In this document: piece by piece, positions 12,316 through 38,014 of the stretch
How the letters are laid out: the number at the start of each line of letters is the position of its first letter
Numbering within the stretch: the stretch's first letter is position 1
Origin: Eledone cirrhosa
Taxonomy: Eukaryota
Direction of reading: 5' to 3'
Length of the DNA: 64,000 nucleotides
Assembly: GCA_964016885.1 (NCBI GenBank)
Contig: OZ024742.1
Span: 236,964,001-237,028,000, forward strand
Made by a program: the position numbers and the translations under genes
The notes under the pieces: generated by a model
The model's input: only the letters and a program-made list of their open reading frames with translations
What the model was told of the DNA's origin: nothing
The model's database searches: none

Positions 12316-13492
12316 ATTAGAAAGTGATGTTTTTTTACAAAAAGAAAAAAAAACGAGGTGTCCTACACGAGTGAAAGTATAAGGAAAAAAGATGAAATCG
12401 AAAATGCAACTGGAGTCTTTTTTATAAAAATATGTATTTATTTGGTTCCTTTACCGGTTTCGCAGTTCTTCTGCTTTTCAAAAGTAGAATTGAGATGGAG
12501 GGTTTGTGGTTTTTCTCATATCTGGTTGGTCTTTGAATGTTACTTCTGTTTTATATGGAAAACGTGGCTCGAAATGCTAGGTTTTTAGAGAAGTAATTTG
12601 GTTGGTTGGTGAATAAGTATAATAAATTTCGCGTCAGTTCGCGTTACAAAGTTCTTATTATATGTGCCTTAAAAAAAAGGGGGTGTGGACTCAGGTTTTT
12701 TTTTCATATATGAGTGAAGTTTGGTTGGTTGATGCAGTCACGTGAATAAGCACATCAGCTTTCGCGCCAGTTTGTGTTTGAATTTCTTTTTACTTAAAAA
12801 AAAGGTGGCTCACGAAGGCTTTTTTTTATAAATGTAATTTGATTGGTTATAAATGAAATTATGACTGTCACGTGAACAAGTACATTAAAATTCGCGCCCG
12901 TATTTTGGAATTTTTTTTGTTGCCATTTAGAGAATTTTGTGCCAAACAAAAGATAATGGTCTAGAAAAACGGTTAGAGAGAGTTGTTCTGAGTATGACTG
13001 ATGTGCTGAAATGTAATTTGATTGGTTATAAATGAAATTATTACTGTCACGTGAACAAGTACATTAAATTCGTGCCCGTATTTGGGAATTTGTTTTGTAG
13101 CCTTTTAGAGAATTTTGTGCCAAACAAAAGATAATGGTAAAGAAAAACGGGATGGGGAGAATTGTTCTGGTTCAGTGAATATGGCTGGTGTGCTGGGGTG
13201 TCAAAATTCAGACTTTCTATTGAAATAAAGAAAGTAGTGATATGTATGTTTATTTGTGTGTTAATAGAATCATCTTCCTACACACACACAAACACACACA
13301 AACACACACACACACACACATACACACACAAATAAATATACATATCTCTACTTTCTTTATTTCAATAGGAAGTCTGAATTTTGACACCTCAGCACACCAA
13401 CCATATTCACTGAACCAGAACAATTCTCCCCATCCTGTTTTTCTTGACCATTATCTTTTGTTTGGCACACAATTCTCTAAAAGACTACAAAT
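12316..13492 (-). mobile_element. pLTR-like cassette (family X) with internal direct repeats and an inverted repeat
   Basis: 12316-12520 matches 29873-30015 and 31453-31822. ~180-bp direct repeat at 12830-13190. ~13075-13260 is inverted at ~13323-13492. Confidence 0.65.
12448..12485 (-). ncRNA. Type I hammerhead fold, U3-A8 variant
   Basis: CTT-TTGAAAA-GCAG-AAGAA-CTGC-GAAA-CCGG-TA-AAG. Confidence 0.7.
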
Positions 13493-16400
13493 CTCTCCGC
13501 AAACACATTGGTCGCGATGCCTTTACTAACAACCTCGTCTAAGTTTCTTGCTAGTTATACCTCTACTCTGTTGTTCGCTATAGCTAAAGCCTTACTGAGC
13601 CTAATGGACTCTATTCTAATCGCCCTTTTCTTGGCGAACCACCTTTTGTTGTTGACGACTGCCCCCGTCAACGCCCGCTTAATTAATTAACTAATCCGGT
13701 CTCTGTAGGCTTTGTGCACCGGGAGCGACTCGTTCAGCTTCGAGTATCAGGGTCCCTGTCTATGAAGCCTATCTAAGTCGACCACACAGATCACAAATTT
13801 CTGTGGATGATGGGATGCGGTTTGTCCATGTCCACATTGGCTTATTCAGGAAATTCAGTCGGTCCTGTCAGACAGTTGGAATCGTCTGAGGTGGTTTGTG
13901 AGGCTTTTATACACTCCTTCCCTATCCGCTAGTCCCATACTGTCCAGCATGCATTTGAGATCCTGTTCCAGTCGCCCATTAACATTAAGGTCTCCAGTCG
14001 CCCATTAATATTAAGGTCTCCAGTCGCCCATTAACAGGAAGGTCTCCAGGCGCCTGAAGAAATCAGGTCATCCTTCCCCAGTCGGTGCATAAACTGCCAC
14101 GAGCCTGAAAGCATAGTCGTCGTTGCTGGTCACGTCCAGTACCACCGACTTACTTTTTGGGTCCAGAAAAATGGTTCGTATCATGAGATCTAGGTCTTTC
14201 CGAAAAAAACAGCGAGTCCCTTTCCAGATCCCGGATGGTTTGGAAATGTGTACATCTCGTAACCGACGAAAATGGGTGTGAAGGTTTCCTCCTCGGAAAT
14301 TCTGGTCTCGCTGATTGACACCACATCTATAATCATTGACCTGAAGTCATTGAGCAGATGATTTTGCTTCTATTATGACCCCAAGCCACGTGCATTTACG
14401 CTGCCTATTCTCAGTAAGGCATGTTTATGGTGAGGGTGGTGTTGACGTGGAAGTCTATACTTTTTTTTGGGGGGGGGGTCCAATTGTAGTAGAGCGCTTC
14501 GAGGAGATCGGAGAACAAGTCTGGCATATCTACGTAACACTCGTATGGCAGACCATTAAAACCTGGCGACTTGTGCCTCGTGTAGCCGACAAGGGGACCC
14601 CGAATTTCGGCTGAGTTATCGTCCTTTCGCAGCTCTCAGCATCGGCTGCCGTGAGACGCGACAAATCGTCGAGGTAGGGACTGAAACCTGCCACCATTCA
14701 GACTCGCCATTTCCCCAGAACAGCCGAGTGAAGTGCTGGCGAAAGGCCTCACACAACTGCCTGGAATCGTTCAGCTCGCGTCCGTATCGGTTCGTCTAAA
14801 ACCGAATTGTTAGTCGGGCCCACCGAACCGCTTTGTTTCCCTCGTTTCTCAGAGCACGTGCCTTAGCTCAGACAATGCAACCTTCGTATTTCGCATTGAA
14901 GAAATGGTCTAATGCTATTCTCGCCGCTAGAACGTCGGTTGCAGTGCCACTACAAATTGCCTCGTCTAATTTAGCTACCACCTCCCTCTCCTTTCTAAGA
15001 TTCCGTTCCTGTCTTCTGCTAACAGTAAAGTGCGAGACATACCCTAAAAAGCTTCCAGGCATCTAAAGAAGTCCGGCCGTCCGGCCTCGGTCGGGTCGTA
15101 GATGGCTACCAGACTAAAAGCACCACTTTCGCTATTGTTCACGTCCAAGACCAGCAACTTACCGTCCGGGTCCCAGAAGATCGACCTTTCCTCGAGATCC
15201 AGTCCTTTCCTTTCCTAAACAGCACTACCACCCCATATCCCATTCCCGGCCAACTAACATATGCGAAGATCTGATAGTCGTCGAAAATGGGTGCTAGTGC
15301 CCACCGTGTTGGAAATCTTAGTCTCGCTAATCACATTCATATGTTGAGACTTCAGCTTGTTGAGCAGACGATCCTTTTCTATGTCTTGCCTTAGTGCTAT
15401 TGCTAGCAGTGTCATCAAATCCTTGTTGACCCTTCTTAATAGCACGAAGTTGAGTGTATTGTTTAGTTCTTGTTGTGCTTGTTTGCGTTTGGGGGATTGT
15501 GGTGGTGATGGTTGTTTTCATGTTGTTTTGGGTGTGTCTGTGTTTGTTGTGGGTGGGTGTCTGCGATTTCAGTTGTATGTGTTCTTTTGTTCTTCTGTCT
15601 GCTTTGGTTGTTTGTGTTTGGGTGATTGTGGTGGTGGTGGTGTTCGTGTTGTTGGAGAAGTGTTTGAGTTTGATTTGTGGGTGGTGTCTGTATTTTCTGT
15701 TGTAGATGTTTTTGTGATTTGTGAGATTTTTGTGCGTCTTCTCTTTTGTATTTTGGATGGTTCAGGATTGTCATCATCTTTGCTACTGGAAGACGAGGGG
15801 GTTTGTGTTTGTGTTTGTTTTATTTTTCTCCATGTGTGTATTTGGAGGGGGAATGGGAGAGCTTTCCTCGTTTTCCCACTGCATGGCCAGCGTTGGTGGT
15901 GGTGTTTCCGATGTTGTTGCTGGTGGGGGTGTTTCGGTGCTGGTGTTGGTTGTATTCCTTGCCCCGGCGTCGGCATCGGTGGAGACTTACGACTCTTTGC
16001 ATTTTTTAGCATTTGAGGGCAGAAGGTTCGCAAATGCGTTGTTTCCCCGCAGATGAAACAATGAGATCTTTGCCCCCGATCATGTGTAGGGGGTGGATGT
16101 GATCCGGGATTTTTCTCACATCCTGCGGCGTGATTTGGAGAAGTATCTCCAGGTCAACAGAGGATCAGTCCTCCCTAGCTGTCCTCGTTACTTCAATCGG
16201 GACGGTATCCGTCCCCTCCACAATCACGCATCCTAGGTGCCACCACGTGTGTAGTCCTGGAGGAATCCCGGTAATGCAGACTCTCAATGGTCTTTTTCCC
16301 ATGTGGATGGGGTACAAAATGACATTGCTGGTTTTGCAAGGAATCATTGCGTGTTTAGTAGCGAGGGCTTCTGACTTAAACTGCACTGAAATGGTGCAGT

Positions 16401-17205
16401 ATTGTCTGCCCCTCGCTATCTACTCGGTGTCATCCCTAGTGCACCTCAGCTCGGATACAATTTTGGCTTGTGAAATTATAGCTGCTTTTTTTCGCCTAAA
16501 ATGAAATGCACATGAAATGTAGCGTTCTTCCCTCCAACGCTTCTATGGCTTCTGCCGGGATAGTTAGGTTGGCCCAGGTTTGCTCTTATTTGATGAGCTT
16601 CCAGGCCTGGAGCAACATTTTATCTATCTCGCTGAGGTCCACGCTGAAACATGGGCTCTTTTTGGTTGCTGCCTCAGTGAAATTGTTCTTATTGTTGGTG
16701 ATGTCGTTATTGTTGGTGTTGTTTTTGTTGGTGGCGTTGTTGTTGTTGTTGTTCTCATTCTTCCTTATGCTGTTATTGTTGGTGTCGTTGTCGCTGTTGC
16801 AGTAGGTGTTGGTGTTGTTAATGTTTCCATTGTTGTTCTTGGTACAGTTGGTGTCGTTGTCGCTGCTTTCCTGATCTGTTTTGTTGAACCTGTTGGTGCT
16901 GCCACTGTTTATGTTGCTGCTGCTGTTGTTGTCGTTGTTGTTGTTGTTGCTGTTGTTGTTGTTGGTGGTGGTGGTGGAGGTGGTGGAGGTGGTGGTCTTG
17001 TTGTTCATGATGTTATCATTCATGTTTTCACTGTCGTGTGTGTTCGTTTTAATTTTGTTTTTCGTTTCCGTTGTTTCAGTGGTGGGGTGGCGGTGATGTC
17101 TGTGGTGTTAGCCCCGTCTACCATCGTTGTGGTAGGATTGTTGACATTCACCGTGGTAAACATTGGCAGCTCTGTAAAGTCCGCTGCGTTTTCAGACTGA
17201 ACAGC
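13493..17205 (-). mobile_element. Tx1/L1-like LINE mosaic, decayed (low-complexity ORF1 with CCHC knuckle, APE fragments)
   Basis: HCFICGETTHLRTFC near 16020-16070; APE pieces (ISETKIS, GDWN, PGYxKLN-like); similar to the 18281-24095 copy; abuts (TAA)n. Confidence 0.75.
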
Positions 17206-17277
17206 AAAGATGATAATAATAATGATAATAATAATAATAATAATAATAATAATAATAATAATAATAATAATAATAAT

Positions 17278-37207: not shown

Positions 37208-37450
37208 ACTTAAAAACTTAAAACCACAACTGAATACTAACCCATACAATCACTAATACTCTTTTATTCCTAATTAAACCATTTTTCAACTGTGAACAAT
37301 TTGTCAGCATTTTCTATTCCGTTTACCAATATATATATATATATACTTAGGGATGGTCATGCTGCCAATAAAAACATTCGCACCTGTTGGTTTTCACTTC
37401 AATTTATTATAAATTTCCGGTTGGCTGGTTGGTTGGTTGGATAACCGGAT

Positions 37451-37493
37451 GTCAAAGCTCTTTCGTCACAGATTATGTGACCTGCTCAGTGAC
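37451..37493 (-). ncRNA. Type I hammerhead fold, G8C (probably inactive), family V
   Basis: GTCA-CTGAGCA-G-GTCACA..TGTGAC-GAAA-GAGC-TT-TGAC. Confidence 0.6.
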
Positions 37494-38014
37494 GGGGTTT
37501 TTATTTTGTATATCTGCTTCGTTCTGTCCTACACCATCTTGTTTTTGTGTCTTCTGAGATGCGAGACAAACCACACAAAAAACACAAACCCTCCATCTCA
37601 ATTTTACATTTGAAAATCATAAGAACTGTGAAACTCGTAAAGTAAATAAATAAATATTCTTAAAACGCATTGTGTGTATGTATATTTGTGTATATTTGTG
37701 TATTTTTTAAAAGGTTATAGAGACATACTGTGGAGAAAATGGCAAGATTGAATGGTTTCACAGTCAGCATGAACCTGTAACTCGCATAAAGAAAATCGCA
37801 AGAGTACACTCACCTGTGGTGAAGACCATGGGTTTGTGTGGTTACACGATTGTCCTTACTTTGAGTTTTTTCCTGTAACAGGAGGACTGATTATCATAAT
37901 TTTCTTCCTCATCCGATTTTTATCTAAATCCCTCACGCTTTATATAACTTGTCTATGTAATGTACCCTCATTCAGTGTCCGTGTGTCAAATAACAGACAT
38001 CATTATTATTATTA

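What the first reader, a model, noticed from the sequence alone, without database searches (positions are those of the whole stretch)
12448..37643. Family-fixed U3-A8 hammerhead core (TTGAAAA) in several families
Seen: TTGAAAA replaces CTGANGA at 2378, 12448(-), 29943(-), 31529(-), 31650, 30368, 37174 and 37610, each followed by a stem II and G(A/C)AA-CCGG-TH or a close variant. Stem II differs among families (GCAG/CTGC, GCAT/ATGC, GATGG/CCATC) yet stays paired. Known: C3-G8 is a Watson-Crick pair in the active hammerhead fold and U3-A8 is an uncommon natural compensatory variant. Inferred: selection on catalysis; standard CUGAnGA searches would miss this lineage.
Basis: partly seen in the sequence, partly recalled or inferred. 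Interest (0 to 1): 0.75.

Follow-up and report, generated by a model that had tools for sequence, protein, structure and literature searches.

The report
Penelope retrotransposon hammerheads with U3-A8 core
The motifs are the small hammerhead-shaped RNA elements in the end repeats of one group of Penelope-type jumping genes (about 36,000 copies in this genome); their U-A core pair is a variant already in print, but one young family has also replaced a second normally fixed core base in about 12,500 copies and is likely a poor or dead cutter that kept spreading.

Summary
Real, but mostly known. Six of the eight sites are exact minimal type I hammerheads (UUGAAAA–stem II–G[A/C]AA–CCGG–UH); two are decayed. 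They lie in the pseudo-LTRs of RT+GIY-YIG Penelope-like elements (PLEs). Genome-wide the pattern has 35,789 matches (control 62); mispaired 3/8 forms are about 0.6-0.7% each. The host families with an RT form one clade (100/100), so the 'several families' share one U3-A8 change. Across 82 outside PLE loci, 24 of 25 sense motifs keep a Watson-Crick 3/8 pair (19 C-G, 3 U-A, 1 A-U, 1 G-C), and a single U-A origin is rejected; this supports selection on the fold. U3-A8 in PLE hammerheads was published in 2014 (S. mansoni, ~1,300 hits), and this scan has noted it on other DNA, including this genome. Extra here: family B carries A13C in 12,487 copies (40 with A13) and has intact, 98-100% identical RT copies; families A, B, E pair U3 with A17, like the C3-G17 trap. 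Family A shows a weak excess of copies starting at the cut site (21 vs 8, p about 0.02, post hoc); B and C show none, at low power. Cleavage is untested.

The parts
1..1646 (-). 5'-truncated family C PLE body: C-terminal RT region, Cys linker and GIY-YIG endonuclease (ORF 432-1646), then 3' UTR; its 3' pLTR with the hammerhead lies just left of the window (L011:9384, -)
   Evidence: Pfam GIY-YIG E=4.5e-6; 97.9% to L043; motif in L011
1640..2530 (+). Inverted pLTR arm of the same family C insertion
   Evidence: blastn to L043 pLTR, 91.6% over 903 nt
2378..2415 (+). Family C hammerhead: U3-A8, stem II GAUGG/CCAUC, A13, palindrome ACCGGU, C17; stem I 2 bp
   Evidence: 2,041 genome matches
12289..13492 (-). 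Family A pLTR fragment with CCAAT/TATA-like upstream region; short inverted arm at 13262-13492
12452..12481 (-). Family A hammerhead (U3-A8, GCAG/CUGC, A13, A17), stem I 3 bp
29867..30015 (-). Short family A copy between (TA)n runs; hammerhead 29947-29976
30174..30411 (.). Older family B head-to-head pair joined inside the core; + arm motif 30368-30397 (U3-A8, C13, broken palindrome CCGT)
31453..31850 (.). Family A head-to-head insertion in (TA)n: hammerheads 31533-31562 (-) and 31650-31679 (+); + arm starts at AGATG 31608 (inferred transcription start); predicted cut between 31679 and 31680
   Evidence: 11,539 exact genome copies of the 30-mer
37111..37144 (-). Inverted arm made of family A tail, joined to a family B arm (chimeric insertion)
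37142..37339 (+). Young family B pLTR stub; hammerhead 37174-37204 with U3-A8, C13 (GCAA), A17
   Evidence: 99.5% to L033; 12,487 genome matches with GCAA
37577..37657 (+). Decayed old family A copy; motif 37610-37639 with broken stem II and palindrome

Best explanation
These are minimal type I hammerhead motifs in the pseudo-LTRs of one clade of Penelope-like retrotransposons, whose ancestor likely swapped the core pair C3-G8 for U3-A8 once; they are predicted to fold for cutting only when two copies pair through the ACCGGU palindrome, and likely cut slowly. Shown: the motif sits about 1-1.4 kb after the RT+GIY-YIG frame and, in full-length copies, again before ORF1; most copies are 5'-truncated stubs in (TA)n, often head to head. 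Inferred: transcription starts about 42 nt before U3, 30 nt after a TATA-like box; single motifs stay uncut, so uncut RNA is copied back with the motif intact; when the two pLTR motifs of a tandem transcript pair, a small share is cut after N17. In families A, B, E and most D copies, U3 can pair with A17 and extend stem I, which would damp cutting as C3-G17 does. Family B has further lost A13 and is likely slower still or dead.
For: Carrier: L033 is pLTR-ORF1-RT/EN-pLTR with the B motif in both repeats; RT/EN lies upstream of the motif on the same strand for A (L037), C (L043; window+L011) and E (L121, L122, L125, L126). Counts with tail GMAACCGGTH: U-A 35,789 (control 62), C-G 119 (162), C·A 258 (33), U·G 219 (46). 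Covariation between families: stem II GCAG/CUGC, GCAUU/AAUGC, GAUGG/CCAUC, GAUG/CAUC; stem I 2.2-1.2 U-A in A, B and A-U in C, D, E. Outside loci: 25 sense motifs in 82 loci (shuffle mean 0.4), 24 with a Watson-Crick 3/8 pair and A13. Tree of 30 RTs: five host rows form one 100/100 clade among C-G relatives; one U-A clade rejected, p-AU 1.7e-14. Cofold of A gives the palindrome duplex, stem II and stem I with U3-A17 (monomer). Starts: arms of many head-to-head pairs end at AGATG (A) or AGATC (B); 6 of 17 B pairs in the first 100 rows are 81-83 nt apart (hand count). Cut-site scars in A: 21 of the first 100 rows break exactly at +1, the mode (hand count); (TA)n-joined breaks at +1 versus the matched position +5: 21 vs 8, at +2 versus +6: 10 vs 10 (binomial two-sided p=0.024). 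Literature: PMC4209133, PMC3088659, PMC3884650.
Against: No cleavage or RNA data. In a pairwise mutagenesis of one type III hammerhead only the G3-C8 swap rescued and other changes in that region had low activity (PMC9901934). Published PLE minimal hammerheads cut weakly even as dimers. Stem I is only 2-4 bp, and the lowest-energy folds of B, C and E monomers tie up the core. 0 of 40 long B copies start at the cut site; 15 of 40 run to or through the upstream motif (9 of the 40 were preselected for length). No cut-site excess in B1 (3-4 breaks in the cut-site A-run against 18 and 14 in two downstream A-runs, 40 distinct loci from the first 100 of 139 rows), B2 (12-13 vs 13 of 29) or C (4 of 24 at +1/+2, like other AT microhomologies). 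The A excess is small, post hoc, and could come from RT stalling at the palindrome. The A versus B difference is not significant (Fisher p=0.45). Both core changes are C/G to U/A transitions in an AT-rich genome, so mutation bias may have driven them.
Confidence: 0.7

Rival explanations
1. The whole U3-A8 clade here is catalytically dead; the motif is kept as a pairing or protein-binding structure (stem II plus palindrome) or simply hitchhikes in the pLTR.
For: A13C fixed in a thriving family; U3-A17 alternative pair; most copies come from uncut RNA; low activity of non-G-C swaps in PMC9901934; PMC8557442 notes that hammerhead function in these elements is unclear and Naiads spread without canonical ones.
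Against: UGA, A9, G12, A14, A15.1, U16.1 and H17 are all kept across families whose RTs are 49-70% identical; 3/8 stays paired in 24 of 25 outside motifs; weak cut-site excess in A; U3-A8 reported active in vitro (PMC3088659).
Confidence: 0.2
2. All families, B included, cut well in vivo: A13C is tolerated or offset by the longer stem II or a protein chaperone.
For: B kept U3-A8, stem II, palindrome and UA cut site through three subfamilies; in the 4-A tail subfamily 12 of 42 rows break at +1 (hand count).
Against: With a downstream control that excess vanishes; A13 is kept in 24 of 24 paired outside motifs and in every GAAA row of the published alignment; recalled, not from a call: A13 changes strongly lower cleavage in minimal hammerheads.
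Confidence: 0.15
3. Chance likeness in an AT-rich repeat (TTTTGAAAA is a near-palindrome).
For: TTGANAA alone occurs 75 times in the window; folding z-scores are unremarkable.
Against: 0 of 100 shuffles; 35,789 vs 62 control; fixed place in pLTRs; homologous canonical motifs at the same place in related PLEs, e.g. L254 CUGACGA...GAAACCGGUU.
Confidence: 0.02

Closest known systems
U3-A8 minimal hammerheads of Schistosoma mansoni Cercyon PLEs (Cervera and De la Peña 2014, PMC4209133; read: main text parts 1-2 of 4, supplement file 2 part 2 and passages)
   Same: U3-A8 core, including the same UUGAAAA heptamer (row S. mansoni(4)*); place in pLTRs; short stem I; palindromic stem III; mostly single, truncated or opposite-strand copies.
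   Different: About 36,000 copies against ~1,300; 6-nt palindrome ACCGGU; A17 in most families (the listed PLE-linked S. mansoni row has U17); C13 in family B, absent from the rows I could read; different host and PLE lineage.
Neptune/Nematis-type EN+ PLEs (Craig et al. 2021, PMC8557442; read: passages)
   Same: RT followed by CX4CxxC linker and GIY-YIG with CCHH residues; ORF1 set off by a frameshift; (TA)n targets; partial tandems, inverted 5' arm, tail.
   Different: Not placed against reference Neptune or Nematis sequences; tails here are 130-170 nt rather than 30-40 bp.
Natural core variants of hammerheads (Perreault et al. 2011, PMC3088659; read: section 8, passages, supplement term search)
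   Same: U3-A8 covariation seen in nature and cited as active in vitro.
   Different: Those text passages list A6C, A6a, U13a, U15.1-A16.1, not A13C; figure content not visible to me.
G17 hammerheads trapped by C3-G17 (PMC3884650; read: passages)
   Same: A Watson-Crick pair between positions 3 and 17 that extends stem I and competes with the 3-8 pair.
   Different: Here it is U3-A17, natural and family-fixed; the analogy is my inference.

Membership tests
PLE minimal type I hammerhead | Core boxes N3-UGA-N7-N8-A with paired 3/8 | tested here: met
   U3-A8 in 35,789 matches; mispairs 258 and 219
PLE minimal type I hammerhead | G12 A13 A14 A15.1 box | tested here: met
   Met in families A, C, D, E (44/44, 4/4, 15/15, 15/15 fetched copies; families were sorted partly by this box)
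PLE minimal type I hammerhead (family B) | A13 | tested here: not met
   C13 in 12,487 matches, A13 in 40; B is a derived, non-conforming form
PLE minimal type I hammerhead | Stem II paired, with covariation between families | tested here: met
   4-6 bp in A, B, C; 13/15 in D; 14/15 in E
PLE minimal type I hammerhead | Palindromic 15.1-16.1 segment and UH cut site | tested here: met
   ACCGGU then A, C or U; duplex -8.3 kcal/mol; the palindrome was part of the search pattern
PLE minimal type I hammerhead | Stem I of about 4-5 bp | tested here: inconclusive
   A 3-4 bp, B 3, C/D/E 2; 2 bp is reported for D. virilis Penelope
PLE minimal type I hammerhead | Location in pLTRs flanking an RT+GIY-YIG frame | tested here: met
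   A, B, C, E. D not tied: 0 of 12 D loci gave a D-specific RT; the fragment in L140 groups with A
PLE minimal type I hammerhead | Self-cleavage as a dimer | not testable with these tools
   Only indirect scars: weak in A, none in B and C
Neptune/Nematis-type EN+ PLE | C-terminal GIY-YIG with CX2-5CxxC linker | tested here: met
   CDRPNCGIC linker then LIYVLTCSGC...YIGQT in B; Pfam GIY-YIG in C
Neptune clade | RT groups with reference Neptune elements | not tested
   No named reference sequences at hand
Non-LTR retrozyme | Non-coding tandem arrays with a hammerhead in each unit | tested here: not met
   U3-A8 matches in the first 100 rows are dispersed or head to head; arrays of ~466 bp belong to canonical ACUAGU families

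The most novel reading that the evidence does not exclude
Family B is a young, intact Penelope family whose hammerhead lost catalysis (A13C on top of U3-A8 and a U3-A17 trap) before it spread to about 12,500 copies, while its sister family A still cuts and leaves copies that start at the cut site. The pair would be a natural experiment showing that cleavage is dispensable for Penelope retrotransposition.
Probability: 0.35. Interest if true: 0.6.

Novelty: new member of a known kind. Interest (0 to 1): 0.3.

Why it matters
The U3-A8 pair itself adds a host and a larger count to a 2014 result. It matters for annotation: U3-A8 motifs are about 36,000 of the roughly 91,000 minimal hammerheads counted by three patterns here, and CUGANGA descriptors skip them. 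The more useful part is family B. Why Penelope elements keep hammerheads is an open question (PMC8557442); sister families with and without A13, both with intact frames, make it testable with short RNAs.

Tried and rejected
Rfam scans: no hammerhead family among the 150 of 328 rows shown for the window, nor for three short stretches, one of them canonical; uninformative. No RNA holder listed among public runs; contigs laid showed the B motif without differences in a second organism label at low depth and no listed loose end at the cut site (84 rows not shown); not used as evidence. The repeat finder was swamped by microsatellites. First RT tree (16 rows) was star-like with partial rows and was replaced. 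Single-mutant counts reflect decay after insertion, not selection; about 1 double change is expected by chance, and 2-3 family-A-like C-G rows appear in the first 100. An alternative register for B using the GAAA inside its stem II loop fails (no stem II, no U16.1). One search was inflated by repeated rows and lacks a downstream control; of 38 distinct rows 7 break at +1 (hand count). Families J (C-G with ACCGGU) and K could not be tied to a PLE frame (0 of 8 and 0 of 6 loci with a linked frame). Lünse et al. 2017 (PMC5785218), Przybilski and Hammann 2007, Martick and Scott 2006 and Nelson and Uhlenbeck 2008 were not held; Lünse may already list A13 variants. 'A13C not found in print' rests on searches, the passages, and supplement look-ups; figures and file 1 of the PMC4209133 supplement were not seen. 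PMC11014351, PMC2837043, PMC6765202 (passages, section 11 part 2) and 10.64898/2026.07.22.740005 (part 1 of 5) added background only.
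Full report
Observation. All eight sites are present. The full pattern TTGAAAA-N9-25-G(A/C)AACCGGT matches six of them and none of 100 shuffles; a descriptor scan with free 3/8 positions gave 6 hits, 5 of them U3-A8 with the CCGG loop, and no CCGG hit in 30 shuffles. Sites 30368 and 37610 are decayed copies. Read as a type I hammerhead, the motif is stem I 5' strand, U3 U4 G5 A6 N7 A8 A9, stem II, G12 A13 A14, A15.1-CCGG-U16.1, H17, stem I 3' strand.

Genome counts. The window lies in a 3.0-Gb animal genome; the closest named RT relatives are from Octopus species, oysters and mussels. 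With the tail GMAACCGGTH: U3-A8 35,789 (reverse control 62), C3-G8 119 (162), C3·A8 258 (33), U3·G8 219 (46). Most listed mispaired rows are single changes in the large families. Families: A (GCAG/CTGC; 11,539 exact 30-mers), B (GCAT../..ATGC with GCAA; 12,487), C (2,041), D and E (TTGATAA; 2,706 together). Canonical cores also abound in other families: 40,420 with ACTAGT, many in ~466-bp arrays, and 14,544 with ACGT. So U3-A8 is one large lineage, not the rule of the genome.

Carrier. L033 is a full element: pLTR with motif, ORF1, RT plus GIY-YIG, second pLTR with motif, then (TA)n. RT/EN lies on the same strand upstream of the motif for A (L037), C (L043) and E (L121, L122, L125, L126). In the window, 1-1646 (-) is a truncated C body with GIY-YIG, its 3' motif lies in the neighbouring stretch L011, and 1640-2530 (+) is its inverted arm with the motif at 2378. 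The Cys linker, the frameshift after ORF1, (TA)n targets and inverted arms fit the Neptune/Nematis type described in PMC8557442; the clade was not tested against references. D could not be tied to its own RT.

One event here, several elsewhere. Of 82 outside loci with related RTs, 25 sense-strand motifs were found with all 16 combinations at 3/8 allowed (shuffle mean 0.4): 19 C-G, 3 U-A, 1 A-U, 1 G-C, and one U·G inside a frame with G13; the 24 paired ones have A13. The tree used the 25 loci with a motif from a slightly different scan plus five host rows; the 57 loci without a motif were left out. The host rows form one clade (100/100) inside a supported group whose other members are five C-G and one U-A. 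Starred branches force at least 3 changes for U-A, and one U-A clade is rejected (p-AU 1.7e-14; LG+G4, no mixture model). The link between motif and RT in outside contigs is by proximity and strand. The nearest relatives, 40-48% identical, carry C3-G8, one with the same ACCGGU palindrome (L254), so U3-A8 is likely derived. This between-lineage pairing is the real support for selection on the active fold; the differing stem II sequences within the host clade show selection on stem II, not repeated 3/8 changes.

Known status. PMC4209133 reports U3-A8 in S. mansoni Cercyon PLEs with about 1,300 hits, lists a UUGAAAA row, and finds no monomer and low dimer activity for a minimal hammerhead. PMC3088659 reports natural U3-A8 and cites in vitro activity. 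PMC9901934 found only the G-C swap to rescue in one type III construct. Earlier notes of this scan report U3-A8 PLE hammerheads in at least 10 genomes, this one included; these are unchecked and not counted as support.

How it likely works. Shown: stem I is 2-4 bp and stem III cannot close within one copy; the palindrome gives a -8.3 kcal/mol duplex, and cofolding two A motifs yields stems I, II and the shared stem III. Many head-to-head arms stop at AGATG (A) or AGATC (B), 42-43 nt before U3 and about 30 nt after a TATA-like box (6 of 17 B pairs at 81-83 nt); inferred: this is the RNA start, and those templates were uncut. Long B copies do not start at the cut site (0 of 40) and 15 of 40 reach or pass the upstream motif, which fits a tandem, circular or strand-transfer template and does not separate them. 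U3 can pair with A17 in A, B, E and 9 of 15 D copies; by analogy with C3-G17 (PMC3884650) this would damp cutting (inference).

Indirect test of cutting. Following a lead from earlier notes, I looked for copies that begin at +1. In A, 21 of the first 100 of 260 rows break exactly at +1, the mode. With matched context, (TA)n-joined breaks number 21 at +1 against 8 at +5, and 10 at +2 against 10 at +6 (46 and 23 distinct loci; p=0.024 two-sided; post hoc, hand tallies). This is well under 1% of copies. In B1 the cut-site A-run has 3-4 breaks against 18 and 14 in two downstream runs; in B2 12-13 against 13, although alone had looked like a peak (12 of 42); in C 4 of 24, no more than at other AT microhomologies. 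The A versus B contrast at the exact position is not significant (p=0.45). Verdict: weak support for cutting in A, inconclusive for the rest.

Family B. GCAA is A13C. It is in 32 of 33 motifs beside near-intact RTs; the 70 scored RT copies are 98-100% identical to the query, most with a 784-aa open frame; only 40 B-type motifs have A13, the level of back-mutation. All three B subtypes (TAAG, TTAG, TTTAG loops) carry it. No outside paired motif has it (0 of 24), and I did not find it in print (searches named under Tried and rejected; a key paper was not held). That A13 changes cripple cleavage is recalled knowledge, not a call result. B's lowest-energy monomer fold also ties up UUGA.

Verdict.

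Noticed in passing
window 37111-37339: The inverted 5' arm is family A tail while the direct arm is family B, joined at a short shared word. If not a later deletion, the two arms of a head-to-head insertion come from two separate RNA templates. One example only.
   Followed up: partly
L033:6203-6272 (-); L051-L080: ORF1 and the RT frame of family B overlap at a T TTT TTA heptamer in the ORF1 frame, a -1 frameshift-type site, present in 29 of 30 loci. A frameshift after ORF1 is drawn for some PLEs in PMC8557442.
   Followed up: partly
window 12450-12570 vs L033; L037, L125: B's pLTR resembles A's (74.6% over 126 nt) while B's RT is closer to E's (70%) than to A's (54%): possible swap between pLTR and coding part.
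   Followed up: no
L149-L154: Family K: CTGAGAA (C3·A8), a 6-bp hairpin, CC bulge, GAAACCGGTT, no stem I; about 9 of the first 100 rows; no PLE frame in 6 of 6 loci. Unexplained.
   Followed up: partly
window 28234-28288 (-), 29664-29718 (+), and 30420 onward (+): Canonical C3-G8 hammerheads with a long stem II, 6-bp stem I and ATGCGCAT palindrome, as a converging pair; a similar decayed motif follows the old B fragment at 30420.
   Followed up: no
window 3014-3041 (-), 11495-11525 (-), 44503-44533 (+): Canonical minimal hammerheads of other families; the first lies downstream of a PLE frame fragment at 4335-5181 (-).
   Followed up: partly
G000:C1:5738326-5752444: About 30 tandem units of ~466 bp, each with a canonical hammerhead (GATG/CATC stem II as in families C and D): retrozyme-like array.
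   Followed up: no
L032:3422-6565; L031:4075-7144: A B copy with the RT C-terminus and endonuclease missing between two pLTRs, and two same-strand A motifs 3.1 kb apart with no PLE frame: possible non-autonomous forms.
   Followed up: no
L183, L161: A-family tail duplicated from exactly +1 behind an intact motif (L183), as a jump from a cut RNA end would give.
   Followed up: no
L280:1969, L308:117: Outside PLE loci with A3-U8 and G3-C8 cores.
   Followed up: partly
window 6852-9986 (-), 18577-20055 (-), 54616-57242 (-): Other retroelements: a 1,045-aa AP-endonuclease/RT frame and further RT fragments.
   Followed up: no
window 48482-48576; 43961-44032: A long perfect hairpin and a tRNA-like match above the Rfam gathering score.
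   Followed up: no
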